From assembly GCA_947627505.1 (NCBI GenBank), contig CANQWG010000001.1, positions 9,216 to 73,215 of the forward strand: a stretch of 64,000 nt of DNA, given 5' to 3'. The translations under genes and the position numbers were made by a program. This document shows positions 2,983 through 59,508 of this stretch, piece by piece. The notes beneath the pieces are model-generated. The model made no database searches and was not told the DNA's origin. It was given only the letters and a program-made list of their open reading frames with translations. This DNA is from an uncultured Bacilli bacterium (GTDB lineage Bacteria > Bacillota_I > Bacilli_A > RFN20 > CAG-449). The first letter of the stretch is position 1, and every line of letters starts with the position of its first letter.

Positions 2983-5332
2983 GTTTGAGAGTAATGTTAA
3001 ATAAGGTATCTAATTAACTAGCCATTTCTAGGCAACAAGAAAAGAAGTGTTTGAGAGTAATGTTAAATAAGGTATCTAATTAACTATATTATTAGCAGAT
3101 ATGCACCACGTATCTGTTTGAGAGTAATGTTAAATAAGGTATCTAATTAACTCAAACGGGGGGGGACGCTTCCAGAATTTCGTTTGAGAGTAATGTTAAA
3201 TAAGGTATCTAATTAACTGACTCTATTTTTGTTTTTTACTACTCATCGTTTGAGAGTAATGTTAAATAAGGTATCTAATTAACTGTGGTTTTCATTCCAC
3301 ATATAAGGAGGATGTTTGAGAGTAATGTTAAATAAGGTATCTAATTAACATCTTTTGGCGGGTCCGCGTTGCCTGAATTGTTTGAGAGTAATGTTAAATA
3401 AGGTATCTAATTAACAAGCGCCACCAATATTCTAGCGGATACGTCGTTTGAGAGTAATGTTAAATAAGGTATCTAATTAACGATAAATATAACTATGATG
3501 TTTTAAGGCCTGTTTGAGAGTAATGTTAAATAAGGTATCTAATTAACTAAATACGCAGGACGTCCACCTTATCAAGAGTTTGAGAGTAATGTTAAATAAG
3601 GTATCTAATTAACATTTTCAAAAATTAAAAGCTTCAAGAAAAAGTTTGAGAGTAATGTTAAATAAGGTATCTAATTAACATTCCACCTCCTAAAATAGCA
3701 TCCAACGAAGTTTGAGAGTAATGTTAAATAAGGTATCTAATTAACATTTGCGACATATTGTTCGCCTTGCTCATTGTTTGAGAGTAATGTTAAATAAGGT
3801 ATCTAATTAACCAAACGGGGGGACTGATTCCAGAATTTTAGGTTTGAGAGTAATGTTAAATAAGGTATCTAATTAACGATATTAGCGGTATTTCGATTAT
3901 TAGGTGGGTTTGAGAGTAATGTTAAATAAGGTATCTAATTAACTTATTTATTCCTACTTAGTTAATAAGTCTTGTTTGAGAGTAATGTTAAATAAGGTAT
4001 CTAATTAACTGATTTTGTCGACGTTAGTAAACATTTTTCTGTTTGAGAGTAATGTTAAATAAGGTATCTAATTAACCCTAAGCGCCTTTAATCGCTCCAC
4101 GTTTGCGTTTGAGAGTAATGTTAAATAAGGTATCTAATTAACTCAGAGTCCCATATTGTCGCGACTTTAGTCGGTTTGAGAGTAATGTTAAATAAGGTAT
4201 CTAATTAACAAATATTTTATTTTTAATCATGCATACCTCGTTTGAGAGTAATGTTAAATAAGGTATCTAATTAACTCAAACGACGAGCTAGACGAGTTAT
4301 ATTACGTTTGAGAGTAATGTTAAATAAGGTATCTAATTAACAAGTAAGTAGATAAAACATCACTACCGGCGGGTTTGAGAGTAATGTTAAATAAGGTATC
4401 TAATTAACATGAATCCTCTAACAAATCGAATGAATCCAGTTTGAGAGTAATGTTAAATAAGGTATCTAATTAACAGAACTAAAAGAAGTTTCATTGTCAT
4501 TCATGTTTGAGAGTAATGTTAAATAAGGTATCTAATTAACATATTTGAGCGCGATAACTAATACCATACAGTTTGAGAGTAATGTTAAATAAGGTATCTA
4601 ATTAACCGTTAACAAAAACATCGCCTCAGACGCGCAGTTTGAGAGTAATGTTAAATAAGGTATCTAATTAACTGATAAACTTCAGAGCAAACCAAAGCAT
4701 TAAGTTTGAGAGTAATGTTAAATAAGGTATCTAATTAACCTTAACGATGACTTTTAACGATGTCACGTTGTTTGAGAGTAATGTTAAATAAGGTATCTAA
4801 TTAACAAACGACGATTCAGAGCGGAGGATAAGGAGGTTTGAGAGTAATGTTAAATAAGGTATCTAATTAACCCTCACTATATCCATCTCCTTTACCGAGA
4901 CGTTTGAGAGTAATGTTAAATAAGGTATCTAATTAACATTTCTAAATGAATAATAATAATCATCGATGTTTGAGAGTAATGTTAAATAAGGTATCTAATT
5001 AACAAAAGAAATTATATAAAGAAAATTTTATCTGTTTGAGAGTAATGTTAAATAAGGTATCTAATTAACGAGGTGGAATATGCAAGCAATAATTAATTTG
5101 TTTGAGAGTAATGTTAAATAAGGTATCTAATTAACGATGTTCAACGCGACAAAGTAATCAGGACAGTTTGAGAGTAATGTTAAATAAGGTATCTAATTAA
5201 CCTCCACGTGTAGCGTTGTAAGAAAGAATATGTTTGAGAGTAATGTTAAATAAGGTATCTAATTAACTGGTGTTAATTCTTCACAATGGCTATGTAGTTT
5301 GAGAGTAATGTTAAATAAGGTAATTAAATTAT
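2983..5332 (+). CRISPR. CRISPR array: 36 direct repeats of GTTTGAGAGTAATGTTAAATAAGGTATCTAATTAAC (36 bp) with 35 spacers of 30-31 bp. The last repeat is degenerate (…GGTAATTAAATT).
   Basis: Perfect ~66-bp periodicity read directly in the sequence. The repeat starts GTTTGAGAG, as type II-A repeats do. Confidence 0.97.
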
Positions 5333-39166: not shown

Positions 39167-40321
39167 TTATTTAAAAATTTTATCAATGAGACCAACGGTT
39201 TCGTTAGGAAATATATGTGAATAAGTATCTAAAGTTTCTTTAACAGAACTGTGCCTTAAATGCTTGCTTACAATTAAAGGAGATATACCTGCATTTATCA
39301 TTCGTGAAGCGCAACTATGTCTTAAGCCATGAAATTTTATATGCGATATATTAGCATCTTTAGCGTGCTTATCCATTATTCTTCTAATAGTTGTTCTAGA
39401 AGTGTGTTTATGACCGAAAAACATATAATCATCATCTGTGGCATACATATCTTCTTTTAGTTTTATTAAATCATTTGTTAGATCTTCGGACATAGAAACT
39501 GTTCCGTGACTACTAGCGGTTTTAGCATCATCTAAATTTCCGCTGCTATCCATGCTTTTGTTTATATTGATTGTTTTTGCTATTGGATTAAAATCACTCC
39601 ACTTAAGTGGTATAAGTTCACCAATTCTTAAACCGCAAACATATGTCGTTTTAAATAATAATCTCCAAATATCATCTTTTTCGAAAGTAGCGTAGAATTT
39701 ATCCCATTCTTCGTTGGTCCAAAAAGATAATGATTCTTTACTTGATGAAATAGATTCCCTAATAGGTTTAATCAATACTTTTAATTTTCTATATAGTTCA
39801 TAAGATATATATTCATGGTCGGATGCATATTCTAACATATTTTTTAATAGTAAGAGTATTCGATTTTTTCTTTTTGACTTAATTGTTTTAATGTTTATAA
39901 TTTTAGCTTTAAAATTTTCTATTGTATTTATCGTAAATGCTTTTTCTAACGATAAAGAAATTGAAAAGTTAGGCAAAATATATTTCTTAATCATTAAATT
40001 TTTATTGTAAGTAGTTTGTGTTTTTAGCATTGATTTGCACTCGGTTATAAATAATTTAGATAATTCATAAAGCGTTATAGAAGCTTCAGAGTGCAAATAT
40101 AATTTCCTTCTTTTTTTATCTTTTTCTATTTCTTCAGCTTCTATTGCTTGGACAAACTTTTTGCCACGTTCTTTTGTCCATTCTTTATTGTATATACTAA
40201 TTGTTTTAAACGTTCCATCTGGTAATTTTAAATTATAACATATAAAATATCTTTTTCTTGATTTGTTGTAGCAAATACTCATTGTTTTTTCCTCCTTATT
40301 TTTGTTATAATAGAGGAGCAA
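39167..40321 (-). CDS. Phage tyrosine integrase (site-specific recombinase)
   Basis: 384 aa. The C-terminal catalytic region HGLRHSCASRMINAGI…LRHSSVKETLDTYSHIF carries the R-H-R-Y signature. It sits next to tRNA-Thr. Confidence 0.85.
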   Translation of the reverse strand: MLLYYNKNKEEKTMSICYNKSRKRYFICYNLKLPDGTFKTISIYNKEWTKERGKKFVQAIEAEEIEKDKKRRKLYLHSEASITLYELSKLFITECKSMLKTQTTYNKNLMIKKYILPNFSISLSLEKAFTINTIENFKAKIINIKTIKSKRKNRILLLLKNMLEYASDHEYISYELYRKLKVLIKPIRESISSSKESLSFWTNEEWDKFYATFEKDDIWRLLFKTTYVCGLRIGELIPLKWSDFNPIAKTININKSMDSSGNLDDAKTASSHGTVSMSEDLTNDLIKLKEDMYATDDDYMFFGHKHTSRTTIRRIMDKHAKDANISHIKFHGLRHSCASRMINAGISPLIVSKHLRHSSVKETLDTYSHIFPNETVGLIDKIFK

Positions 40322-43889: not shown

Positions 43890-44057
43890 ATGCTTTTAAA
43901 AGAGACGCGTAAAATTGATTCTAAGGGAAGAATTATTCTTCCCCCACCTTTATTAAGACAATGCAAATTAAAACCTGGCGATGTTGTTTTTTTCGAAAGT
44001 ACTAAATCTGGATCAATTATTATTCGGAAAGACAAGAGCGATGAACAACAAAAATAA
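43890..44057 (+). CDS. AbrB/SpoVT-type small DNA-binding protein (55 aa). It is missing from the ORF track because it is under 60 aa.
   Basis: Translation MLLKETRKIDSKGRIILPPPLLRQCKLKPGDVVFFE… matches the swapped-hairpin AbrB/MazE motif. RBS AGGTGG upstream. Confidence 0.5.
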   Translation: MLLKETRKIDSKGRIILPPPLLRQCKLKPGDVVFFESTKSGSIIIRKDKSDEQQK

Positions 44058-44967
44058 AGCCCAAAAATATTATTGGTTCAAGCTAAAATTATCCTTTTTG
44101 GATAGTCCCAAAGTAGATTTTCTAATGTCGCAAAATGGTGGAGCTAATTATGTAGTGATTTACCAAATGCTTTGTTTGAAAGCGATTAACACAAACGGTA
44201 AATTAGAAACATCTGTGAAAGAATGTAGAATCAAATGGGACGACGCTAAAATACAGCGTGAATTAAAGTACTTTGAAATAGACACAATACGAATCGCCAT
44301 GACTCTATTCCTACAACTCGGTTTAATCGTTCCTGATGAAGAAGGTATACTTCAAATTCAAGATTTTAGCGAGCTTGTCGGTTCTGAAACCGGTGCTGCT
44401 ATTGAAAAAAGAGAGCAAAGAAAAAGAATAGACAAAGGGATAGACAAAGGGATAGACAAAAGAATAGACAAAGGGATAGACAAAGGGATAGACAATGTCT
44501 ATCCAGAGTATAGAGATAAGAGTATAGAGTATAGATATAAGAATATAGAGAATATAGATAATATAAATAATATATATAATACTTTAGAAGATAAAAAAGA
44601 TAAAAAAGATAAAAAAGATAAAACCCCTGACGAGGTGTCAAAAAATCCCTTCATAATATTTCTTTTGTCGAAAAATTTTTTTACCAAAAAAGATTATATC
44701 GAAATTCCACTCATCGAAGAGTTTTACGATTCACTGCTTGAGGGCTATTCGTTAAAATCACCTGAATGGATACAACAATATAAAAATATTTTCATAGCAA
44801 CCAAATATATGGTTACCTATGCTTCTAACCCAGAGATTATTGAAGATAAATTAAGTTACATTAAAACCGCAATTAGCGATTCACTTAATAGAAATTACAA
44901 TAATTCGGATTGGATGGAAGAGTGCGAACGCTATTTCGAAACTCATCCGGAACTAAAACGTTATTAA
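44041..44967 (+). CDS. Phage replisome organiser / replication initiator with internal iterons (origin of replication)
   Basis: The N-terminus MNNKNKAQKYYWFKLKLSFLDSPKVDFL resembles phage_rep_org_N proteins. The coding sequence holds 12-bp tandem repeats that translate to DKGIDKGIDKRIDKGIDKGID. Confidence 0.55.
   Translation: MNNKNKAQKYYWFKLKLSFLDSPKVDFLMSQNGGANYVVIYQMLCLKAINTNGKLETSVKECRIKWDDAKIQRELKYFEIDTIRIAMTLFLQLGLIVPDEEGILQIQDFSELVGSETGAAIEKREQRKRIDKGIDKGIDKRIDKGIDKGIDNVYPEYRDKSIEYRYKNIENIDNINNIYNTLEDKKDKKDKKDKTPDEVSKNPFIIFLLSKNFFTKKDYIEIPLIEEFYDSLLEGYSLKSPEWIQQYKNIFIATKYMVTYASNPEIIEDKLSYIKTAISDSLNRNYNNSDWMEECERYFETHPELKRY
44428..44626 (+). repeat. Iteron cluster and AT-rich unwinding element. 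There are about 5.7 copies of ATAGACAAAGGG (44428-44499), then TATAGAG-type AT-rich repeats, then 3 copies of GATAAAAAA (44591-44626).
   Basis: Tandem repeats are directly visible, in a lambda-O-like arrangement with the origin inside the initiator gene. Confidence 0.7.
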
Positions 44968-48148: not shown

Positions 48149-48538
48149 ATGACAATAGAACAATTAAGAACCCAAGACAAAAAACATGCGCAAGTAATTG
48201 CAAATTATCTAATAAAAAGAATTGAAACCGACCAATGCTTAAAAGAAAAAATTGAAACAACAACTAAAACATTAAAAGGATGTGTTAAATATTGTAAAAA
48301 TGAGGCGCGTAAACAAGCTGAAGATGGATGTGCAATGATTCCTGATGATGAAGTGTTTAAGTGGGCAGTTCATTATTTTCTTGAAGATTCAATCAAAGAA
48401 AATGAAATACCATCTATTCCTAATTCTAAAATTAACAATGAAAAAAATAATACTCAAAAATTTACTTCTGATACTAAAAAAGATAAAGATGTAAAAAAGA
48501 AACTTATCGAGCAATTAACATTATTTGACTTAGGTTAA
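48149..48538 (+). CDS. Hypothetical phage protein
   Basis: ORF only. Confidence 0.35.
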   Translation: MTIEQLRTQDKKHAQVIANYLIKRIETDQCLKEKIETTTKTLKGCVKYCKNEARKQAEDGCAMIPDDEVFKWAVHYFLEDSIKENEIPSIPNSKINNEKNNTQKFTSDTKKDKDVKKKLIEQLTLFDLG

Positions 48539-48539
48539 T

Positions 48540-49865
48540 ATGGAACCATTTGATTACAATCCAATACTAGAACTTGTTGACTATCCAATTACGCTAGAAG
48601 ATAAGATTAAAGAATTGGGATATTATTTTTCAAGTTATTTAGAATATGATGCAAAGAAAAAAGAATTTATACGACATGTTTATGCAAGTCGAACCACGAA
48701 AAAAAATGGTTTTGAGTGCATGGAAATTTTTAGAGAATATGAAAGCGGCTTAAAAATAGGAAAAAATTTTTATTATTGCTCATACGGAAATGCTGCAGGG
48801 ATGCACGTTGTTTGGAAAAACACAAATTCATTTTATTACGGAAATAAAGAAAGGATTAAAAAATTTGTTGAATGTGATGATTTTATAAATATTGGAATGT
48901 TTCGGTCGTTTCAAATGACTACATTAGAGGAAATTGTAAGTAATGATTTAAATTTGAGATTTTGTCGATGGAACAATCACGTTGATGCTTTAAATTATAT
49001 TAAAATTTACAAAAGATATCCGATTGTAGAAATGCTAATGAAACTTGAATTATATCACTTAGTCTTTAATGAAAAATGCCTTTTGTTAATGATAGAAAGT
49101 AAACAATTTTGCAGATGGCTTTTTAAAAATAGAGATGCGATAAAAAAAGATCAAATTTCTTTTCCAGCTTTAAAATCTGCGTTTAAAAACGGGCAAGATG
49201 TTGCTAAATATAATGAGAAAATTATTAAAAAAAGATTGGATGCTAAAAGAATATCAGATGAGTTAGGCACTCAACTTTATCATCTTATAAAAGATGTATG
49301 TAAAGATTTTAATAAGGCGCAAAAATATGCTCAAATGGTTGGTAAAGAAAATTATCGAGATTATTTAGAAGCTTGCAAATTTTTGAAATTAGATTTATCT
49401 GATACAAAAGTTTTATATCCAAAAAATTTTAAATACTGGCATGATTTTTACGTTAATCAAATGACCTCAGCAAAAAACACAATAATAGATCAAAATATAT
49501 TAAAACAGGCCAAGCGATATAAATATTTGCTTTTAGATTTAGAAAAATTAGTTTTAATTTTTCCTTCAAAAACTCAAGATTTTATCGATGAGGGCAACGC
49601 ATTACATCACTGTGTAGGTCGTATGAATTATAACGAAAAGATGGCTAAAGGTGAATCGCTAATTATTTTCATTAGAAAAAAAACAGCACCAAACAATCCA
49701 TTTGTTACGATGGAATATAATCCTAAAAAAAAGAACATACAGCAAATTTATGGCAATCATGATGAACCACCTACTGCAGAAGTTAAAAATGAAATTTATA
49801 ACTTTTGGCTTCCAATGGTGCAACAAATAAAAAATAAGAAGTTAAAGGAGAAAAAAATAATATGA
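48540..49865 (+). CDS. PcfJ-like protein
   Basis: 441 aa; a weak resemblance to plasmid and phage PcfJ-domain proteins. Confidence 0.4.
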   Translation: MEPFDYNPILELVDYPITLEDKIKELGYYFSSYLEYDAKKKEFIRHVYASRTTKKNGFECMEIFREYESGLKIGKNFYYCSYGNAAGMHVVWKNTNSFYYGNKERIKKFVECDDFINIGMFRSFQMTTLEEIVSNDLNLRFCRWNNHVDALNYIKIYKRYPIVEMLMKLELYHLVFNEKCLLLMIESKQFCRWLFKNRDAIKKDQISFPALKSAFKNGQDVAKYNEKIIKKRLDAKRISDELGTQLYHLIKDVCKDFNKAQKYAQMVGKENYRDYLEACKFLKLDLSDTKVLYPKNFKYWHDFYVNQMTSAKNTIIDQNILKQAKRYKYLLLDLEKLVLIFPSKTQDFIDEGNALHHCVGRMNYNEKMAKGESLIIFIRKKTAPNNPFVTMEYNPKKKNIQQIYGNHDEPPTAEVKNEIYNFWLPMVQQIKNKKLKEKKII

Positions 49866-51130: not shown

Positions 51131-51490
51131 ATGTTAACCGATGAATTGAGACAGCAAATAAAAGAATCAAATCTTACTAAAGAAGATTTAAAAGTTATTT
51201 TTTTAGATAACTTTATTAACAAGTATAAAGACGGATCATTGTATTTAAATTTAATCGATTTAGACTTTAGTGATTTTAATGGTGATATTTATATTTCAGG
51301 AATGAAAGTTAAGAAAAATTTATATCAATCTTGTCAAGAAGTTAAAGGTGATTTATTTCAAGATAATCAAGAAGTAAAAGGTGATTTATTTCAAGATAAT
51401 CAAGAAGTAAAAGGGGATTTATATCAAGATAATCAACAAGTACAAGGAAATATACGTTCATCCAAAAGCAAAATAAGAAAGGATAAATAA
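51131..51490 (+). CDS. Hypothetical phage protein with three 33-bp tandem repeats (QDNQEVKGDLF x3)
   Basis: The repeat CAAGAAGT(T/A)AAAGGTGATTTATTTCAAGATAAT occurs three times between 51331 and 51430. Confidence 0.4.
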   Translation: MLTDELRQQIKESNLTKEDLKVIFLDNFINKYKDGSLYLNLIDLDFSDFNGDIYISGMKVKKNLYQSCQEVKGDLFQDNQEVKGDLFQDNQEVKGDLYQDNQQVQGNIRSSKSKIRKDK

Positions 51491-53993: not shown

Positions 53994-54659
53994 ATGAAAA
54001 AAACAAAAATAGATTGGTGCGATGTAACGCTGAATCCGGTTGTGGGTTGTAAAAATAATTGCCCATATTGCTATGCAAAGAAACTTAACGATAGATTTCA
54101 TTTTGTTGAAAATTGGAATGAACCACAATTTTTCCCCGAAAGATTAAAAGAATTAAATTCTAAAAAACCAAAATCAATCTTTATGAATAGCATGAGCGAT
54201 ATAGGATTTTGGAAAGAAGAGTGGTTAAGTGCCACATTTGAAGCTATGCAAAAGAATCCTCAGCATAAATACATTTTCTTGTCAAAATGTCAAAACGGCT
54301 TTTTAGGGAAACTAAAATTCTATATGGGGTTAGAAGATATAGCGTTCTTTGGTTTATCTATTACTACGGCACAAGATTGGCAAAAACTGCAAGGTAGCCA
54401 CTTTGATTTTGTCAGCATAGAGCCGCTTTTGGAAGACTTAGGCTTGCACAGATACAGCTATCATCCTTTGTCGTTAGAACAAATTATTATCGGTGCTGAA
54501 ACAGGCAACAGAAAAAACAAGATCGTTCCTAAAAAAGAGTGGGTAAACAAGATCGTTGAATTTGCAGACGAACATAATATTAGAGTGTTTATGAAATCAA
54601 GCTTAAAGGATATTATGGGCAAAGATTTTAGGCAAGATCCATTGCTTTGGAACAAATAA
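53994..54659 (+). CDS. Phage Gp37/Gp68-family protein (DUF5131)
   Basis: TKIDWCDVTLNPVVGCKNNCPYCYAKK is the characteristic N-terminus. Confidence 0.6.
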   Translation: MKKTKIDWCDVTLNPVVGCKNNCPYCYAKKLNDRFHFVENWNEPQFFPERLKELNSKKPKSIFMNSMSDIGFWKEEWLSATFEAMQKNPQHKYIFLSKCQNGFLGKLKFYMGLEDIAFFGLSITTAQDWQKLQGSHFDFVSIEPLLEDLGLHRYSYHPLSLEQIIIGAETGNRKNKIVPKKEWVNKIVEFADEHNIRVFMKSSLKDIMGKDFRQDPLLWNK

Positions 54660-54670
54660 AAAAAAGAGGA

Positions 54671-54910
54671 TTACTCCTCTTTTTTAATGTCATTAAGTAT
54701 TAACTTTCTTATATAATCGGCTTTGTTTGGAACACTATCAAGTTTATTGAGAATTTCTATGTCGTTTATAAGATTATATCTCACGCTGATGCAACGAGTA
54801 TTCGCTTGGTGCCAATGGTTGATTCGGGTTAAAATAGCTTTTTTCCTTTGCTTTTCAGTTTTGTACTTAACGTTATGTGCTCCGCCTCTAGTTTCCTTTT
54901 TTTGGGGCAT
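54671..54910 (-). CDS. Small basic ribbon-helix-helix-like DNA-binding protein; last gene of the antisense island
   Basis: Basic N-terminus plus DSVPNKADYIRKLILNDI (RHH helix 2-like). Confidence 0.3.
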   Translation of the reverse strand: MPQKKETRGGAHNVKYKTEKQRKKAILTRINHWHQANTRCISVRYNLINDIEILNKLDSVPNKADYIRKLILNDIKKEE

Positions 54911-55166
54911 ATTTTTCTTGTCTCCTTAGTAATTTTTGTTTTGCTTCGTCAAGTTGTTCTTGTTCTAATTCGTAAGGCGGTCTACTTACGAAAATTTGTT
55001 TAACAAATTTTTTACCTTTTTTTGGCACCCAATGGCAACAAGAGCAAATATTATGTATTTCAATTATTTTCTCTGCATATTCCCTAGAGCGCGAGTAAAT
55101 AGTCATTCCTAATTTTGATGATTCGTCTATAAAACTATAGGCATTTATTTCAAATAATTCTTCCAT
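54888..55166 (-). CDS. Hypothetical protein with a CxxC…H cluster
   Basis: ORF in the antisense island; contains ICSCCHW. Confidence 0.3.
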   Translation of the reverse strand: MEELFEINAYSFIDESSKLGMTIYSRSREYAEKIIEIHNICSCCHWVPKKGKKFVKQIFVSRPPYELEQEQLDEAKQKLLRRQEKYAPKKGN

Positions 55167-55263
55167 AGCATATTGTCCTTTATTAGTTTAGCATTTTTAT
55201 TTTTTATTTACTACTTAATTTGTTTAATGCTTTAGTTGCATTTTCTTATCCTCCTTATAATGA

Positions 55264-55443
55264 TTATCTTTTTTGTTCTTTATTTAACTTGTCTGCGTAT
55301 TCTTGTGCTTCTTGATATGTATTAAAGATTCCTCCGCTATATTCCACGTTTCCAGAATGTATAGTTTTATTTGTATCCTTGATTCTTTGTACTTGATAGA
55401 CATCGCGTCCAATATAATTAGTTGTAACTTTCCACTCACTCAT
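55264..55443 (-). CDS. Small hypothetical protein (59 aa), not in the ORF track
   Basis: Read by hand: MSEWKVTTNYIGRDVYQVQRIKDTNKTIHSGNVEYSGGIFNTYQEAQEYADKLNKEQKR, with RBS GGAGGA upstream. Confidence 0.4.
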   Translation of the reverse strand: MSEWKVTTNYIGRDVYQVQRIKDTNKTIHSGNVEYSGGIFNTYQEAQEYADKLNKEQKR

Positions 55444-55467
55444 TTACTAATCCTCCTTATAAAATTC

Positions 55468-55638
55468 TTAAATGGTCGTAATGCTTGTTAGTGTTATTTC
55501 ATCAGATTCGCAGTCCCTAGAAGTATTTATTAGTAAAATACATTCATTATTGTATGTTTGATCCGGACAGTTTTGCGCGATCCATTCGTCGTACTCTTTT
55601 TGATTTTTAAAAGTTTTATCAATAATATATTCATTCAT
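55468..55638 (-). CDS. Small hypothetical protein (56 aa), not in the ORF track
   Basis: Read by hand: MNEYIIDKTFKNQKEYDEWIAQNCPDQTYNNECILLINTSRDCESDEITLTSITTI, with RBS GGAGAAATAG upstream. Confidence 0.35.
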   Translation of the reverse strand: MNEYIIDKTFKNQKEYDEWIAQNCPDQTYNNECILLINTSRDCESDEITLTSITTI

Positions 55639-55653
55639 CTTTCTATTTCTCCT

Positions 55654-55923
55654 TTACACCATAATATTTACTATTATTAAATCTTTGCTTGATTCATATT
55701 CGATACATGTAAGATACACTTCAAAACCTTTGATAAATAAGTGAATATCATCAGCAAATGCTTTTTTTTTCACGTCAACTTTAAATCCGTTTTTTTTCAG
55801 GGCTTCAAAGACTTCTCCGTTATATTTAGAGTATGAATATTCTTTTTTTAAAGAATAATAACCATCATCTTCTTTGAAGCCTTTATATCGCTTTAAATAA
55901 TTCTTTAAATCTTTTCTTTCCAT
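55654..55923 (-). CDS. Small hypothetical protein (89 aa; start at MERKD)
   Basis: The internal Met has AAAGGAG 8 nt upstream. The longer annotated start would overlap the neighbouring gene. Confidence 0.4.
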   Translation of the reverse strand: MERKDLKNYLKRYKGFKEDDGYYSLKKEYSYSKYNGEVFEALKKNGFKVDVKKKAFADDIHLFIKGFEVYLTCIEYESSKDLIIVNIMV

Positions 55924-55945
55924 CGTTCTTGCTCCTTTAGACTTG

Positions 55946-56572
55946 CTAATAAACTCGGCTAATGCCACCGTTTTTTGCGACAATACCGATTTTGCCAAGA
56001 TCGCTAAAATCTGGAACATCAAGATTATAAACGTAAGAGTAGGGAAACATCATTCCTTCGCTATCTGCTTTTAAGTCTTCTTGCTCCATTTCCCATTCTT
56101 CTGGATATTGAGAGATGAACAGAAGGGATAAGCAAAGACCAAAATTAAATCTTGTCAGTTGCGCATGATAGACTAGCGCGTGTCTTTGATCTTCAAATTT
56201 TTTGATGATATCTACAAACACTTGTTTATTTTTTACCAAATAAAGAATCCCATCAAAGATTTTATTTTGGCGTTCAGAGTAATAAACGGTGTTATCCGTT
56301 TCAAATTCTTTAATAACATTTGGAAGTAATTTTAAAGATTTCATTCTATTGATTGCTTCCGCTTTCTGAAAGATTTTCAAAATTTCATAATACTTTTCGC
56401 CATCCAAAGAGGGAATATAAATTCCCTCGATTTCGTCATTGTCTAAATAGTGAATCTTTAATTCTTTTGTTTCGCAATTCAATTCGGCAAAAATTATTTG
56501 TTCGTTCTCTTCGAAGTCAAAATAATTATATAAATCATTTGATTGGTCGGTCGTTAAAAAAATTGTTTCCAT
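55946..56572 (-). CDS. Hypothetical acidic protein (208 aa)
   Basis: ORF in the antisense island. Confidence 0.45.
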   Translation of the reverse strand: METIFLTTDQSNDLYNYFDFEENEQIIFAELNCETKELKIHYLDNDEIEGIYIPSLDGEKYYEILKIFQKAEAINRMKSLKLLPNVIKEFETDNTVYYSERQNKIFDGILYLVKNKQVFVDIIKKFEDQRHALVYHAQLTRFNFGLCLSLLFISQYPEEWEMEQEDLKADSEGMMFPYSYVYNLDVPDFSDLGKIGIVAKNGGISRVY

Positions 56573-56598
56573 TGTTGAGTCTCCTTTCTTTTAGCGAG

Positions 56599-56943
56599 TT
56601 AATCTATGAAGTCCTTTTCGACAACTTCGATTTTATCGCCACAATAGATCATGGGCTTTTCATTTTTAAACCAATTAAGCAAAACTTGTGTTTCATTGAA
56701 GCATTCATAAATTTCGGTGCTATAGAAGCATTCGCCGTATTCGTTAGTAATTTTAACTTGATAAGGTCTAGTTACTTCGTAAATATCGATTGTAATGTCT
56801 TCGTCTTCATAATGGATTGGCTTATGCTCTAGATCATCTTCATATTTATCTTTAAGATCTTCGATCAATCCTTCAAATAACCAAGGATTTTCTTTGTAAA
56901 ATTCCTCATATTTTGGGGCTACTTTAATATCAATTTTTCTCAT
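56599..56943 (-). CDS. Hypothetical acidic protein (114 aa)
   Basis: ORF in the antisense island. Confidence 0.45.
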   Translation of the reverse strand: MRKIDIKVAPKYEEFYKENPWLFEGLIEDLKDKYEDDLEHKPIHYEDEDITIDIYEVTRPYQVKITNEYGECFYSTEIYECFNETQVLLNWFKNEKPMIYCGDKIEVVEKDFID

Positions 56944-57022
56944 TTTAATTTCTCCTTTTTTCTTTCTTATAATTCTTTCTTTTAAAGTGGTGTTTTTAGT
57001 GTTATCGCCTCACTTTTGATGA

Positions 57023-58132
57023 TTATTCTTTTATGTCTAGAATTAAATTAGTTGCTTTTCTGGATTGGCCAATGGTGCTTAAAATGTTGTGCTTGATTCC
57101 TTCCTTTAGTCCTTGACCCCAACTCTTTAAATAAGCGATGCTGTTGTTAAGTAGATCATCGGTCATTATTTTTAGTGAAATCATGGAATAAAGGCTGGAT
57201 AACTCTGCGACAAGTTCTTCTTTGCTGTAAGTAGTAGAAGCGAATCCACAACTGCTAGTCAGGGTTTTCCGATTCAGAAGCGAGTGATGCCCTGTTGAGT
57301 GGGCGAACTCATGCAACATCGTTTGGTAGTAATTTTCAATCGATTCAAATTGGTTTTTAGTCGGAATTGTGACGCTATGATCAGAAGGGCGATAGAACGC
57401 GCAATTTTGTGCGACTTCTTTAAAAGTTAAGTGGGCTCTTTCAATGTAAGATTCTTTAATTTTTTCCACTTTTTGAATGCGCTTTAAATCATTCTCTGGC
57501 TGTTCTGCCTCATCTTCAATCTTCCACAACTCTTTAACATTCAAGCCGCAATCTTCCGCTTTGAATAAATATTCCAATACATATTGAAATTTTCGATATT
57601 TAAATTGTTGCTTGATATTATCCCATTCTAAACTTTCATTAAATTCTTTTTCGTTGCCTTTAGAATCGGTGTATTTGAATTTAACTTTGACTTCTAATTT
57701 TACACCGGCGATAAGTTGTTCTATTTCTTCTTTTAATTCTTCTTTGTCTTTCATTTCTTTTTCTAGTGCTTCTCGCTCGATAGTTGTTAAGTATTTGTAA
57801 AATTTACATGCTTTGTAGTTTGGCGTGCCTTTAGCGCCTTTGTTTAGATGCAATTTGTGCTCTTTGATTTGCTTAAAAGTGACATAGAATCCAGCCGGCA
57901 CAAAGAGTGGATCATATTCTTTCATCGTGTAAGTGTTAATTGCCAGCATGTCATCCATTACTAGGTCGTAAATACTTCTTGTTGTCTGATTGGTTGTAGT
58001 GGTCCAAGTCTTGCGCCACGCTTTAACGTTGCCAGATTCAATTATTTCGATAATTTTTTCGGCAGTTGCAACGTTCATTTGGTAGTCGTTCTTGACCGCC
58101 GGATTTTTAGATTTTAAATTTTCTTTCTTCAT
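57023..58132 (-). CDS. ArdC-like anti-restriction protein (N-terminal ssDNA-binding domain plus C-terminal HExxH metalloprotease)
   Basis: N-terminal …ESGNVKAWRKTWTTTT (DUF1738-like) and C-terminal MLHEFAHSTGHHSLLNR zincin motif. Start at MKKENLK. Confidence 0.55.
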   Translation of the reverse strand: MKKENLKSKNPAVKNDYQMNVATAEKIIEIIESGNVKAWRKTWTTTTNQTTRSIYDLVMDDMLAINTYTMKEYDPLFVPAGFYVTFKQIKEHKLHLNKGAKGTPNYKACKFYKYLTTIEREALEKEMKDKEELKEEIEQLIAGVKLEVKVKFKYTDSKGNEKEFNESLEWDNIKQQFKYRKFQYVLEYLFKAEDCGLNVKELWKIEDEAEQPENDLKRIQKVEKIKESYIERAHLTFKEVAQNCAFYRPSDHSVTIPTKNQFESIENYYQTMLHEFAHSTGHHSLLNRKTLTSSCGFASTTYSKEELVAELSSLYSMISLKIMTDDLLNNSIAYLKSWGQGLKEGIKHNILSTIGQSRKATNLILDIKE

Positions 58133-58183
58133 TTGGGTTTCCTCTTTCTTTCTGGCGTTTGTTTTGGTAGAATAGAGGCACAA

Positions 58184-59508
58184 ACGCCGTAAGGCCTTTG
58201 GGAATAGTCTTTTAATTGCTGGCAGGCATTTTAAGGCTATTTTTTAATTTAAGAAATATATATAAAACGCTATATAAAGCGTGTAAATATCCTAATTACA
58301 CAGGGGGACGATTTATTCTATTAGGTTTTCGCCTCTAATATTTGGCGCCGTCCGCGTCTATCGTGTCGTTAATTTCATTTGGCAGTGAAACGATATAACA
58401 TCTACCAAATATACAAGTTTGCAAAGAACGATTTTTTTGTTGTGTCTCCACAATTTGTTAAAGTCCCTTGCAATTCAGGGACTTATTGATTATAATTTAT
58501 TTGTGTTTTAGATAGGGCGATAAGTTATTTATCGTATCTATCTTTTTTTACTTCTACAATAATTTTTAGAAGTATAAACAAAGTAATAATAGTTATAATA
58601 CTATCCATACTCTGATTTACTCCAATAAATCAATAAGTGTAAATTGCAAAGAACCGTTAACGAGATTAACATTTTGCAATGCCTTTCTCATCGCTAGGTT
58701 GCCCTAACGACAAACACATCTTAATTGACTTTGAAATATTAGTCAAGCACAATTTTTCAATAATCGCTTTTTTGCGCAAAATTATATTACATGTAATATA
58801 AAAAAATTAAAAAATTTTTTCTTTTCTTTATTTATTTCTTTTACTTTTTATGGTTTTTTCTTCTTTCGATTTTTGGCTTCTGGAAGCAATCAGAGCGAAC
58901 AAAGAGCACAATAAAAAGCGCATTAGAAGCAACAGTCACAACGCGCCAAAGTTATAATTTTTTATATATTTCTTATCTTTAGATAATCTATTACTTAGTC
59001 TTTAAGTTTACTTAATCTATTAGTTATTTAATTATATAAATATATTTTAATTATTATTAAATATATAATACTTACTTTAGATACTATAAATGTATAGAGA
59101 ATATTATAAAAGCCGGAAATAGACATCGCTTGAAAAAGTAAAAAAAAAGAAATTAGTTATTATTAAATAACTAAAAGTTTTTAACGTGCACAATCTCTAT
59201 GAATTGCTCCAAAACAATAAAAAGCCCTAAAAATAAGCACTTTTTAAAAAGTGTAAGGGAATTTTTAAGAATTTACTAGTTGCAAGGGTATTAAATAGTA
59301 CTAGTAATATAAGACATCTATCAATCAACCAAGACCAACACCCACCCCCCATACCGGCGACAAAGGGGGAGGGTGGCAAAAATAAAACAATGTCTCAAAA
59401 TAAATTTTTTTCATTTTTAAGAGAAACATAGGAGGGTGTCTTACTACCTTTTTTCTACCTAGCACTTAGAATGGAGCGAATTTTAAAATTAAGTTGAGGT
59501 GAAGTGTC
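58184..59508. other. 1.3-kb AT-rich non-coding region between the antisense island and the terminase genes. It contains hairpins and short repeats and is a candidate pac/cos and promoter region.
   Basis: No ORF over 60 aa on either strand. Hairpins at 58465-58490 (AAGTCCCT…AGGGACTT) and 59340-59380 (CCCACCCCCC…GGGGGAGGGTGG). TTACTTA-type repeats at 58990-59040. Confidence 0.5.

What the first reader, a model, noticed from the sequence alone, without database searches (positions are those of the whole stretch)
54671..58183. Antisense island in the prophage: ArdC-like gene plus six small (mostly acidic) ORFs ending in an RHH gene; candidate anti-defence (anti-restriction / anti-CRISPR) operon
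Seven or eight genes are transcribed opposite to all flanking lytic genes, between the early-gene and packaging modules. This is a typical moron / lysogeny-expressed or immediate-early slot.

The first gene has ArdC architecture: an N-terminal ssDNA-binding DUF1738-like region and a C-terminal HEFAH metalloprotease. Following it are proteins of 114, 208, 89, 56 and 59 aa that are acidic-rich and unrecognisable, then a CxxC protein and a small RHH-like DNA-binding protein at the 3' end, which is Aca-like.

The host chromosome carries an active-looking type II-A CRISPR-Cas with 35 spacers 36 kb away, yet tolerates this prophage. Small acidic proteins placed before an HTH/RHH gene is the canonical layout of acr-aca loci.
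Basis: inference. Interest (0 to 1): 0.72.

Follow-up and report, generated by a model that had tools for sequence, protein, structure and literature searches.

The report
Variable ArdC counter-defence island in prophage
A real eight-gene operon that runs against the flow of a prophage starts with an ArdC-type anti-restriction gene and sits in a slot where related gut phages swap in dozens of unknown small genes, so it is a good hunting ground for new anti-defence proteins, but nothing in it is shown to be an anti-CRISPR.

Summary
Window 54671-58132 (minus strand) carries eight tightly packed genes, each with a Shine-Dalgarno site. They lie between a sigma-70-type promoter with a roughly 590-nt leader and a bidirectional terminator.

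Gene 1 is a bona fide ArdC-type protein: an ArdC-N domain plus an HExxH zincin protease, homologous to PDB 6I89. The other seven genes match no Pfam, NCBIfam, PADLOC or PDB sequence; PHROGs gives only weak hits to families of unknown function.

At least nine related uncultured phage lineages have an antisense operon in the same slot, between the early genes and terS. Its cargo is mosaic, with more than 31 protein families. Most end in the same g92 + RHH-like g79 pair. Recognisable cargo in sister islands is ArdC/MPTase, a DNA methyltransferase, an amidoligase and an HD domain.

The 208-aa protein has a confident predicted fold with no PDB match. Its relatives sit on Firmicutes plasmids beside ArdC-like, SSB, methylase and AcrIIA9-family/PcfJ genes.

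Best reading: a hypervariable counter-defence ("establishment") island, probably autoregulated by the RHH-like protein.

The anti-CRISPR part is unsupported. None of the 35 spacers targets the prophage, and no protein resembles a known Acr. The only homology-backed Cas9-inhibitor candidate is a PcfK/AcrIIA9-family gene outside the island, at 48149-48538.

The parts
58784..58799 (.). Perfect 16-bp palindrome ATATTACATGTAATAT, ending 37 nt upstream of the -35 box. It is the candidate operator for the RHH-like g79 or another phage regulator.
   Evidence: a single perfect copy in the window. Palindromes, mostly of 9-3-9 form, sit 34-37 nt upstream of the -35 in L059, L016-type, L013 and L058; L016 versus L026 differ by a compensatory change that keeps the palindrome. 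L022 also has a 9-3-9 palindrome, read from the alignment, but at a different distance from its promoter. The two lineages without the RHH gene (L010, L061) have a different upstream region. Binding is inferred, not tested.
58718..58746 (-). Sigma-70-type promoter of the island (TTGACT-17 nt-TAAGAT).
   Evidence: Promoter scan. It aligns with the TTGACA...TA(T/A)AAA promoters in front of the sister islands (L059, L016, L022, L013). Activity was not tested.
58278..58434 (-). Conserved 157-nt three-hairpin element in the 5' leader, a candidate cis-regulatory RNA.
   Evidence: Aligned with L022 and L059. RNAalifold gives 40 pairs, 9 of them compensatory. Covariance model R1 finds exactly one copy per locus: window 182.7 bits, L059 185.7 bits, L022 174.3 bits. 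No Rfam family matches. The MFE z-score of the 313-nt leader is -2.3. In L059 it is followed by a strong intrinsic terminator, and a gene is inserted after it.
58267..58282 (-). Hairpin ACGCTTTATATAGCGT followed by a T-rich tract at the 3' edge of the leader element. It may be a weak terminator or attenuator.
   Evidence: terminator-like site. L059 keeps the stem through a G:C to A:T compensatory change.
57023..58132 (-). ArdC-type protein, 369 aa: an ArdC-N ssDNA-binding domain plus an MPTase zincin with HEFAH...EELVAE.
   Evidence: RBS. dN/dS 0.06-0.09. Orthologues at 68-73% identity in L010, L059 and L061.
56599..56943 (-). g114: acidic (pI 4.4) ORFan.
   Evidence: A search of 1.84 billion representatives returns only itself, a 60-aa fragment and a spurious hit to an Ig-repeat protein. 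No Pfam, PDB or PADLOC hit.
55946..56572 (-). g208: acidic (pI 4.6) protein. Its conserved ~148-aa C-terminal core defines a phage/plasmid family with no known fold.
55654..55923 (-). g89: basic (pI 8.8) ORFan, with only weak sub-threshold winged-helix-like hits.
55468..55638 (-). g56: very acidic (pI 4.05) small protein.
   Evidence: Homologues in L019 (81% identity) and L059 (46% identity). dN/dS 0.13-0.39. No PDB hit.
55264..55443 (-). g59: small neutral protein.
54888..55166 (-). g92: conserved partner gene that overlaps g79 by 23 nt. Its function is unknown; it may be a co-regulator or a core effector.
   Evidence: Present with g79 in L007, L019, the L016 family, L024, L026, L058 and L059. 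dN/dS 0.20-0.26. No Pfam or PDB hit. The Cys cluster is not conserved.
54671..54910 (-). g79: RHH-like small basic protein (pI 9.95), the probable transcriptional autoregulator of the island (Aca-like).
   Evidence: Alignment A1 shows the conserved TRCINVRF strand and the DSVPNKADYIR helices. AF2 gives helix 19-37, extended 38-50, helix 51-59 and helix 63-78. It is present in most sister islands. The fold is not confirmed by any profile or fold search.
54660..54685 (.). Bidirectional intrinsic terminator shared by the island and the convergent early operon.
   Evidence: 11-bp stem AAAAAAGAGGA/TCCTCTTTTTT with A and T tracts on both sides, placed between the g79 stop (54671) and the DUF5131 gene stop (54659).

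Best explanation
The region is a hypervariable accessory island of a temperate phage lineage known only from gut metagenomes. Its most likely job is to blunt host defences when the phage genome establishes itself.

Shown:
- It is an eight-gene operon on the strand opposite to all lytic genes.
- It is fed by a host-type promoter through a long leader that contains a conserved three-hairpin element.
- It ends at a bidirectional terminator.
- Its first product has the full ArdC architecture.
- The same slot in related phages holds a mosaic of more than 31 mostly unknown small-protein families.
- The g92/g79 pair is the most constant part.

Inferred:
- ArdC binds exposed single-stranded or entering DNA and uses its zinc protease against restriction (type I in the plasmid paradigm).
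- The acidic or unknown small proteins (g114, g208, g56 and others) are further inhibitors of host immune proteins. g208 belongs to a family shared with plasmid leading-region-like gene arrays.
- g79, an RHH-like dimer, binds the palindrome upstream of the promoter and shuts the operon down after an initial burst, as Aca proteins do.
- The leader RNA adds a second, post-initiation control step.
For: - Operon anatomy.
- ArdC: Pfam, PHROG and PDB 6I89 homology with the HExxH and Glu ligands aligned.
- Slot conservation with cargo turnover: a backbone of TerL at 37-84% identity and PcfJ at about 70%, while phages with 77-80% TerL identity share only 2-5 of the 8 island genes.
- Recognisable cargo in sister islands is of the counter-restriction / polyvalent-protein toolkit: a 601-aa MPTase protein, a DNA methyltransferase (phrog_799, 1e-36), Amidoligase_2 and an HD domain.
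- No structural, lysis or replication family was found in any of about 54 island proteins.
- Against PADLOC defence models there is nothing for the 8 window proteins, and one marginal hit among 46 sister-island proteins.
- g208-family genes on Enterococcus, Listeria and Finegoldia plasmids sit next to ArdC-like zincin, SSB, JAB, N6-methylase, MobP2 relaxase and an 'AcrIIA9 family' + PcfJ pair. These are the gene sets reported for plasmid leading-region anti-defence islands (PMC11541004) and pLS20 establishment operons (PMC8708921).
- Purifying selection acts on six of the eight genes.
- Regulation: an RHH regulator in the aca position has a tested precedent, Aca14 (bioRxiv 10.64898/2026.07.27.740549). 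The presence of a palindrome correlates with the presence of the RHH gene across lineages.
Against: - Only ArdC has a homology-based anti-defence label. Its documented role is in conjugative ssDNA entry, not dsDNA phage infection.
- Seven of the eight proteins have no functional evidence at all.
- Antisense orientation is also the classic layout of lysogeny-expressed morons, which more often help the host, for example by exclusion or defence.
- There are no expression data.
- The recognisable anti-defence genes of this phage group (Gad2, Sequestin, PcfK/AcrIIA9-family, an orphan MTase) lie in the forward early operon, not in the island.
- The RHH fold of g79 and its binding to the palindrome are unconfirmed. 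The palindrome is centred about 80 nt upstream of the start site, which is unusual for a simple repressor.
- The host organism is unknown.
Confidence: 0.6

Rival explanations
1. It is a lysogeny-expressed moron island. The operon is transcribed from the prophage and benefits the lysogen through superinfection exclusion, an unrecognised anti-phage defence or a toxin-antitoxin-like module (g92 + RHH g79). ArdC would be a passenger.
For: The operon is opposite in orientation to all lytic genes, has its own host-type promoter and ends in a terminator, which insulates it from lytic transcription. The gene pair ending in an RHH protein resembles reverse-order TA modules such as BrnT/BrnA. An RHH-HD fusion exists in L058. 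Variable hotspots in temperate phages often carry defence genes (general knowledge).
Against: There are no PADLOC hits for the 8 proteins, and one marginal hit in 46 sister-island proteins. No toxin or antitoxin Pfam family matches g92 or g79. The annotated cargo (ArdC, MTase, amidoligase) is offensive or protective for incoming DNA. g208 relatives sit in plasmid regions near the relaxase, ssb and ArdC rather than in defence islands.
Confidence: 0.2
2. It is a true acr-aca locus. One or more of the small acidic proteins inhibit the host type II-A Cas9, and g79 is their Aca.
For: The layout is small acidic ORFs upstream of a small DNA-binding protein. The host has an intact II-A locus with 35 spacers. 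RHH Aca proteins now have a precedent (bioRxiv 10.64898/2026.07.27.740549). A g208-family gene is adjacent to an AcrIIA9-family gene on Listeria plasmids.
Against: There is no self-targeting spacer against the prophage part in the window (up to 6 mismatches), and none against the relatives (up to 5 mismatches) beyond one 5-mismatch match. No protein resembles a Pfam Acr family or a solved structure. Sister phages carry the same slot irrespective of any known CRISPR context. The prophage already has a PcfK/AcrIIA9-family gene elsewhere.
Confidence: 0.1
3. It is a generic early 'host takeover / DNA handling' cassette with no dedicated anti-immunity role. For example, ArdC-N could act as an ssDNA-binding accessory to the RecT/SSB/RusA recombination module, and the small proteins could modulate host physiology.
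For: The phage encodes a plasmid-like DNA-processing set (SSB, RusA, PcfJ/PcfK; RecT in relatives). ArdC-N is an ssDNA binder. The small ORFans have no assignable function.
Against: Extreme presence/absence turnover between close relatives is not expected for core DNA metabolism. The MPTase + ArdC-N combination is specifically associated with conflict systems (PMC5512222).
Confidence: 0.1

Closest known systems
ArdC of conjugative plasmids (pSa/R388; PDB 6I89, 6SNA) and ArdC-N + MPTase 'polyvalent protein' modules (Iyer et al. 2017, PMC5512222)
   Same: Same two-domain architecture. The HExxH + Glu zinc site aligns. Pfam and PHROG membership is above threshold. It is the first gene of an operon of variable small genes, as ardC is in pLS20 establishment operons (PMC8708921).
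   Different: It is encoded by a tailed temperate phage rather than a conjugative element. It is about 70 aa longer, with a K/E-rich insert between the domains. Sequence identity is only about 26-32% to plasmid homologues. Full-length relatives are almost absent from GenBank phages: 53 of 50,697 records match, and none covers at least 80% of the query. Activity is untested.
Anti-defence islands of mobile elements: plasmid leading regions (Samuel et al. 2024, PMC11541004), pLS20/p576 establishment regulons (PMC8708921), and clustered anti-defence genes (Pinilla-Redondo et al. 2020, PMC7648647)
   Same: It is a co-directional array of small, rapidly exchanged genes. These are mixed with anti-restriction genes, orphan methyltransferases and regulators. 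A long conserved structured sequence lies upstream of ardC. The g208 family is shared with plasmid arrays near the relaxase, ssb and ArdC.
   Different: The location is a fixed slot between the early genes and terS of a phage, transcribed antisense. The incoming DNA is double-stranded, so ssDNA promoters are not required. Only one gene in this particular island carries a known anti-defence label.
acr-aca operons, in particular RHH-type Aca14 (bioRxiv 10.64898/2026.07.27.740549)
   Same: A small DNA-binding protein is encoded at the end of an operon of small unknown proteins. An inverted repeat lies near the promoter, and a conserved structured 5' UTR is present. The RHH-like core is preceded by a helical extension.
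   Different: No known acr gene is present. The palindrome lies about 37 nt upstream of the -35 rather than over the -10. The regulator is always paired with an overlapping upstream gene (g92).
Early-injected anti-restriction genes of lytic phages (T7 gene 0.3/Ocr, T5 first-step-transfer genes)
   Same: This is a conceptual similarity only. The island abuts the non-coding region that precedes terS, which holds a conserved GC-rich hairpin that could be a cos/pac site. If so, the island would lie at a genome end and be read inward from it.
   Different: The genome termini and packaging mode are unknown. The portal is P22-like, which would suggest headful packaging with permuted ends. Contig ends give no consistent terminus.

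Membership tests
ArdC / ArdC-N + MPTase | N-terminal ArdC-N (DUF1738) ssDNA-binding domain | tested here: met
   PF08401 at 33.9 bits against a cut-off of 22.6, residues 40-150. phrog_7245 'anti-restriction protein' at 1e-38 over residues 39-383.
ArdC / ArdC-N + MPTase | C-terminal zincin metalloprotease with HExxH and a downstream Glu ligand | tested here: met
   PF18818 at 85.4 bits. Alignment to ArdC PDB 6I89 at E 3e-14, with HEFAHSTGH aligned to HEATHWTGH and EELVAEL aligned to EELIAEI.
ArdC / ArdC-N + MPTase | Relief of restriction (type I) in vivo, and ssDNA binding | not testable with these tools
   Requires a conjugation, transformation or plaque assay, plus EMSA.
acr-aca operon | Contains a homologue of an experimentally validated Acr | tested here: not met
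   No Acr family appears in Pfam or PHROGs. No PDB sequence hit for g114, g208, g89, g56, g59, g92 or g79. The g208 model has no PDB fold match.
acr-aca operon | Small DNA-binding regulator (Aca) encoded in the operon | tested here: inconclusive
   g79 shows an RHH-like conserved pattern and an AF2 extended-helix-helix topology. It has no profile or fold match.
acr-aca operon | Inverted-repeat operator in the operon promoter, bound by the Aca | tested here: inconclusive
   Lineage-specific palindromes sit 34-37 nt upstream of the -35 wherever the RHH gene is present, including one compensatory change. The position is atypical and binding is untested.
acr-aca operon | Self-targeting spacer or other evidence that host CRISPR would otherwise attack the element | tested here: not met
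   0 of 35 spacers match the window outside the array at up to 6 mismatches. Against the related loci (up to 5 mismatches) the only hit is one 5-mismatch match in L058. The part of the prophage beyond the window was searched only for the ~10 kb held in L001-L006.
Aca14 (RHH Aca) | Sequence homology to the Pasteurella multocida Aca14 family | not tested
   The reference sequence (WP_005725436.1) is not available in the tools. Only the architectural analogy comes from the preprint.
Ribbon-helix-helix superfamily | Beta-alpha-alpha fold forming an antiparallel beta-ribbon dimer | tested here: inconclusive
   The monomer AF2 model has pLDDT 76 with the expected element order, but the strand is not formed. 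Foldseek against PDB returned nothing. hhalign against Arc and CopG is not significant, though it is in register with Arc.
Anti-defence island (clustered anti-defence genes on a mobile element) | Two or more recognised anti-defence genes adjacent to each other | tested here: not met
   This island holds only ArdC. Across sister islands the pan-repertoire adds a DNA methyltransferase, but these are not in the same island.
Anti-defence island (clustered anti-defence genes on a mobile element) | Variable cargo in a conserved slot of otherwise syntenic elements | tested here: met
   More than 31 families across 8 clustered islands, with further variants found later, on a conserved backbone.
Known anti-phage defence systems (PADLOC) | Match to any defence-system protein model | tested here: not met
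   0 of 8 window proteins match. 1 of 46 sister-island proteins matches, at E 7e-4 to a candidate family.
Type II toxin-antitoxin (RHH antitoxin + toxin) | Partner gene belonging to a toxin family | tested here: not met
   g92 has no Pfam, NCBIfam or PDB match. Toxicity was not tested.

The most novel reading that the evidence does not exclude
The island would be the phage counterpart of a plasmid leading region. It would be an 'establishment' operon placed next to the packaging end of the genome. It would be switched on first by host RNA polymerase and then shut off by a new two-part regulator (g92 + RHH-like g79) together with a previously undescribed 157-nt leader RNA. It would draw from a gene pool shared between phages and plasmids, in which g208 (a fold absent from the PDB), g114, g56 and dozens of sister-island ORFans are new inhibitors of restriction, Cas9 or other defences.
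Probability: 0.15. Interest if true: 0.75.

Novelty: new member of a known kind. Interest (0 to 1): 0.5.

Why it matters
If the reading is right, this slot in a family of uncultured gut phages is a ready-made catalogue of candidate anti-defence proteins. It holds more than 40 small-protein families, nearly all without any annotation, and it can be found simply by synteny: ArdC or the g92/g79 pair, between DUF5131/PcfJ-PcfK and terS.

The g208 family is the most tractable lead. It has a confident, unmatched predicted fold. It is shared between phage islands and Firmicutes plasmids, where it neighbours ArdC-like, SSB, methylase and AcrIIA9-family genes.

The RHH-like regulator and the structured leader would extend the recently proposed idea that non-HTH regulators and 5'-UTR RNA motifs control counter-defence operons.

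If the reading is wrong and this is a lysogeny-expressed moron island, the same catalogue becomes a source of candidate prophage-encoded defences instead.

Tried and rejected
- DNA similarity of 54000-59500 to GenBank phages gave no match. The phage lineage has no sequenced cultured relative; the best TerL hit is 27% identical.
- IMG/VR scan with the g79 alignment: the patterns matched but no true relative was found. The GTDB genome scan gave only 3 loci, in MAGs labelled Clostridia, Treponema and 'bacterium'. The host therefore remains unknown, and cluster look-ups of host proteins returned no names.
- The metagenome scan with a 19-mer from the leader gave 31 hits, essentially all chance matches: only short exact matches, plus one 41-nt stretch at 85% identity, and no island proteins nearby. 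That scan was wasted.
- PDB sequence searches for all the small proteins returned only noise such as GFP, keratin and LDL-receptor.
- The g114 hit to a 3386-aa protein looked like a polyvalent protein but is a eukaryotic Ig-repeat protein, so it is spurious.
- I first read the ACGCT...AGCGT hairpin at 58267-58282 as an operator inside a promoter just upstream of ardC. Alignment with L059 and L022 showed it belongs to the transcribed leader and that the homologous promoter lies at 58746-58718.
- The 'first-injected end' idea: the conserved GC hairpin upstream of terS could be a cos site, but contig ends are inconsistent and the portal is P22-like. I keep it only as speculation.
- The zinc-finger reading of g92 is rejected because the cysteines are not conserved.
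- Searching for extra copies of the leader element or the palindrome elsewhere in the window found none beyond chance.

Full report
**1. What is there.**

ORF listing and start-site inspection show eight consecutive minus-strand genes between 54671 and 58132. Each has an AGGAG-type ribosome-binding site, and they are separated by 13-97 nt or overlap:
- ArdC: 57023-58132, 369 aa from the ATG (the TTG at 58183 has no RBS)
- g114: 56599-56943
- g208: 55946-56572
- g89: 55654-55923
- g56: 55468-55638
- g59: 55264-55443
- g92: 54888-55166
- g79: 54671-54910, overlapping g92 by 23 nt

All eight exact sequences exist as called genes in public assemblies, in tiny clusters of 1-5 members. They occur on contigs of up to 108 kb from a handful of samples.

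AT skew, and over part of the island GC skew, flip sign here. The flanks are a prophage. It has an integrase (39167-40321) next to tRNA-Thr and a CI/LexA-like repressor. Plus-strand early genes run up to 54659. After a 1.3-kb non-coding gap come terS (59509), TerL and the portal. A stem-loop with A and T tracts on both sides at 54660-54685 terminates both convergent operons.

**2. The proteins.**

ArdC passes the Pfam thresholds for both ArdC-N and the MPTase zincin. It matches the PHROG 'anti-restriction protein' family at 1e-38. It aligns to the ArdC crystal structure with the HExxH and Glu ligands in register.

The other seven proteins give nothing in Pfam, NCBIfam, PADLOC or PDB sequences. 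PHROGs gives only weak hits to families of unknown function.
- Only g114, g208 and g56 are acidic.
- g114 is an ORFan even against 1.84 billion representative proteins.
- The cysteine cluster of g92 is not conserved.
- g79 has a conserved basic N-terminus, a TRCINVRF strand-like segment and two helices with an invariant DSVxNKxDYxR motif. AF2 places helix/extended/helix/helix in that order at pLDDT 76. No profile or fold search confirms an RHH.
- dN/dS of 0.06-0.48 against diverged copies shows the genes are maintained.

**3. The slot is conserved and the cargo is not.**

I used g208 and g79 homologues as anchors. I fetched about a dozen related phage loci from metagenome assemblies and three MAGs.

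All share the backbone: a P22-like portal, TerL at 37-84% identity, terS, a ~1-kb gap, then the island. Beyond the island lie DUF5131, PcfJ at about 70% identity, PcfK, RusA and SSB on the other strand. All carry an antisense operon in the same place.

Clustering of the island proteins gave 31 families from eight islands, and later loci added more. The architectures vary widely:
- A minimal ArdC + g208 island (L061)
- ArdC plus five genes (L010)
- An 11-gene island with ArdC in third position (L059)
- A 601-aa MPTase protein plus five genes (L013)
- A 565-aa or 411-aa first gene (L022, L058)
- 15-17 small genes with no ArdC at all (L016-18, L020, L024, L026)

A close relative (L019) differs from the window by one inserted 169-aa gene. 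L024, whose TerL is 80% identical to the window's, shares only g92 and g79. The most constant element is the overlapping g92-g79 pair. It is absent only from L010 and L061. In L013 and L022 the upstream partner is different or missing.

Where cargo can be recognised, it is ArdC-N/MPTase, a DNA methyltransferase (phrog_799, 1e-36), an Amidoligase_2 protein and an RHH-HD fusion. There are no structural, lysis or replication families. Only one of 46 sister-island proteins grazes a PADLOC candidate model.

**4. The g208 family.**

tblastn against plasmids finds the core on Enterococcus, Listeria, Finegoldia and Butyrivibrio plasmids. Its annotated neighbours there are informative:
- On Finegoldia pFMC it lies in a co-directional array with an ArdC-like zincin, SSB and a JAB protein.
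- On two Enterococcus plasmids it lies a few genes from ssb, a DUF3991 primase-like gene and the MobP2 relaxase. One of these also has an N6-methylase.
- On Listeria plasmids it sits directly upstream of a 'Cas9 inhibitor AcrIIA9 family protein' followed by a PcfJ gene.
- One further Enterococcus plasmid has a DUF4942 gene nearby. The Butyrivibrio context is all hypothetical proteins.

These are the gene sets described for plasmid leading-region anti-defence islands (PMC11541004) and for the variable establishment operons headed by ardC in pLS20-family plasmids (PMC8708921). This is guilt by association, not a function.

**5. Regulation.**

The island's promoter is not next to ardC. Alignment with L059, L022 and the L016 family places a homologous sigma-70-type promoter at 58746-58718 (TTGACT-17-TAAGAT). 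This implies a leader of about 590 nt.

A perfect 16-bp palindrome (58784-58799) lies 37 nt upstream of the -35. Each lineage that carries the RHH-like gene has its own palindrome, mostly of 9-3-9 form. In L059, the L016 type, L013 and L058 it sits 34-37 nt upstream of the -35. In L022 it sits at a different distance. L016 and L026 differ by a compensatory change that preserves the symmetry. L010 and L061 lack the gene and have a different upstream region. I infer that this is the g79 operator. The position is unusual for a simple repressor, so g79 might equally act by looping or as an activator.

Within the leader, a 157-nt element (58278-58434) is conserved in L022 and L059. It has three hairpins and nine compensatory pairs among only three sequences. 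A covariance model finds exactly one copy per locus and no others in about 300 kb. Rfam has no match. In L059 the element is followed by a strong terminator, and a gene has been inserted between it and ardC. In the window a weaker hairpin plus T-tract follows. This suggests an attenuator-type or protein-binding leader.

The analogy with the long structured sequence upstream of ardC in pLS20 (PMC8708921), and with the 5'-UTR motifs of aca operons (bioRxiv 10.64898/2026.07.27.740549), is noted but not demonstrated.

**6. The CRISPR argument.**

The host locus is a genuine II-A system: Cas1 type II, Cas2, Csn2, 36 repeats and 35 spacers. No spacer matches the window outside the array at up to 6 mismatches. 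Against the fetched related phage loci at up to 5 mismatches there is only one match, with 5 mismatches, in L058. Coexistence therefore needs no inhibitor.

The prophage does encode a PcfK-domain protein at 48149-48538, in the early operon. It is homologous to the NCBI-named AcrIIA9-family protein of the Listeria plasmid (E 2e-11). AcrIIA9 is the PcfK-domain Acr family (PMC6739104). That gene, not the island, is the homology-supported Cas9-inhibitor candidate, although most PcfK homologues are untested.

**7. Interpretation.**

The best-supported explanation (about 0.6) is a hypervariable counter-defence/establishment island. Under this model ArdC gives anti-restriction activity. A changing set of small inhibitors sits behind it. 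The g92/g79 pair and the leader RNA provide burst-then-shut-off control.

Shown: the operon structure, ArdC membership, slot conservation with cargo turnover, purifying selection, the plasmid neighbourhoods of g208, and the conserved leader and palindrome.

Inferred: the timing of expression, every biochemical activity, and the g79-operator link.

Rivals:
- A lysogeny-expressed moron/defence or TA-bearing island (about 0.2)
- A true AcrIIA locus (about 0.1)
- A generic early DNA-handling cassette (about 0.1)

The idea that the island lies at the first-injected genome end rests only on a conserved GC-rich hairpin 130-170 nt upstream of terS. The P22-like portal counts against it.

**8. Novelty.**

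Three things are already known. ArdC-N + MPTase proteins in phages and conjugative elements (PMC5512222). Clustered anti-defence genes on mobile elements (PMC7648647, PMC11541004). RHH regulators in the aca position (2026 preprint).

What is new here is a specific, previously undescribed island slot in an uncultured phage lineage. Full-length ArdC is rare in catalogued phages: 53 of 50,697 records match, and none covers at least 80% of the query. By contrast, 1,997 plasmid records match. Also new are the uncharacterised phage/plasmid protein family with an unmatched predicted fold, and an unannotated leader RNA motif.

I rate it a new member of a known kind, of moderate interest.

Noticed in passing
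window 48149-48538 (+), with PcfJ at 48540-49865: The prophage's early operon encodes a PcfK-domain protein followed by PcfJ. PcfK is the Pfam domain of the AcrIIA9 Cas9-inhibitor family (PMC6739104). The window protein is homologous (E 2e-11) to a Listeria plasmid gene that NCBI names 'Cas9 inhibitor AcrIIA9 family protein', which is itself followed by PcfJ. This is a better anti-Cas9 candidate than anything in the flagged island.
   Followed up: partly
window 58278-58434 (-); L022 7053-7211; L059 4924-5079: A conserved 157-nt three-hairpin element sits in the island's 5' leader. It has nine compensatory base pairs among three sequences, one copy per phage, and no Rfam family. It is a candidate new cis-regulatory RNA.
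   Followed up: partly
window 58525-58608 (-): A 27-codon ORF encodes a hydrophobic peptide (MDSIITIITLFILLKIIVEVKKDRYDK) with GGAG 12 nt upstream. It lies inside a ~225-nt leader insert bounded by the direct repeat GTTCTTTGCAA (58419-58429, 58644-58654). It could be a small membrane or type-I-toxin-like peptide, or it could be chance.
   Followed up: no
window 59339-59377 (conserved block 59330-59418): A GC-rich hairpin (GCCACCCTCCCCC...GGGGGGTGGGTG) plus a GAGACATTG motif is conserved in seven phage lineages, 130-170 nt upstream of terS, inside an otherwise AT-rich gap. It may be a cos/pac site or a late-promoter element.
   Followed up: partly
window 44422-44623, inside ORF 43981-44967: A dense set of short tandem repeats (ATAGACAAAGGG x5.7, a 36-nt unit x2, and 9-21-nt AT/GA repeats) lies within an early gene. 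It looks like an iteron-type phage replication origin.
   Followed up: no
window 51318-51447, in ORF 51131-51490: A 33-nt in-frame tandem repeat (3.9 copies, 89% matches) encodes a repeated QDNQEVKGDLF motif in a 119-aa early protein.
   Followed up: no
L017/L018/L025/L026 (Gad2); L059 12367-12609 and L061 2394-2627 (Sequestin): Sister phages carry Pfam Gad2 (anti-Gabija) and Sequestin-family genes in the forward early operon next to PcfJ/PcfK. Counter-defence genes of this phage group are therefore not confined to the antisense island.
   Followed up: no
L058 9388-10047: In one lineage the RHH-like g79 domain is fused to a C-terminal HD-like domain, giving a 219-aa protein (weak Pfam HD_4/HD hits).
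   Followed up: no
L016 6047-7061: The methyltransferase of the L016-type islands matches only the C-terminal half of phrog_799. It overlaps an upstream 172-aa ORF. It may be a split or frameshifted orphan MTase.
   Followed up: no
window 2983-5332 and 63-1076: The last CRISPR repeat (5297-5332) is degenerate, which places the leader at the cas-proximal end. The ORF at 63-1076, presumed to be the Cas9 C-terminus, gave no NCBIfam hit at 1e-5, so cas9 itself is unverified within the window.
   Followed up: partly
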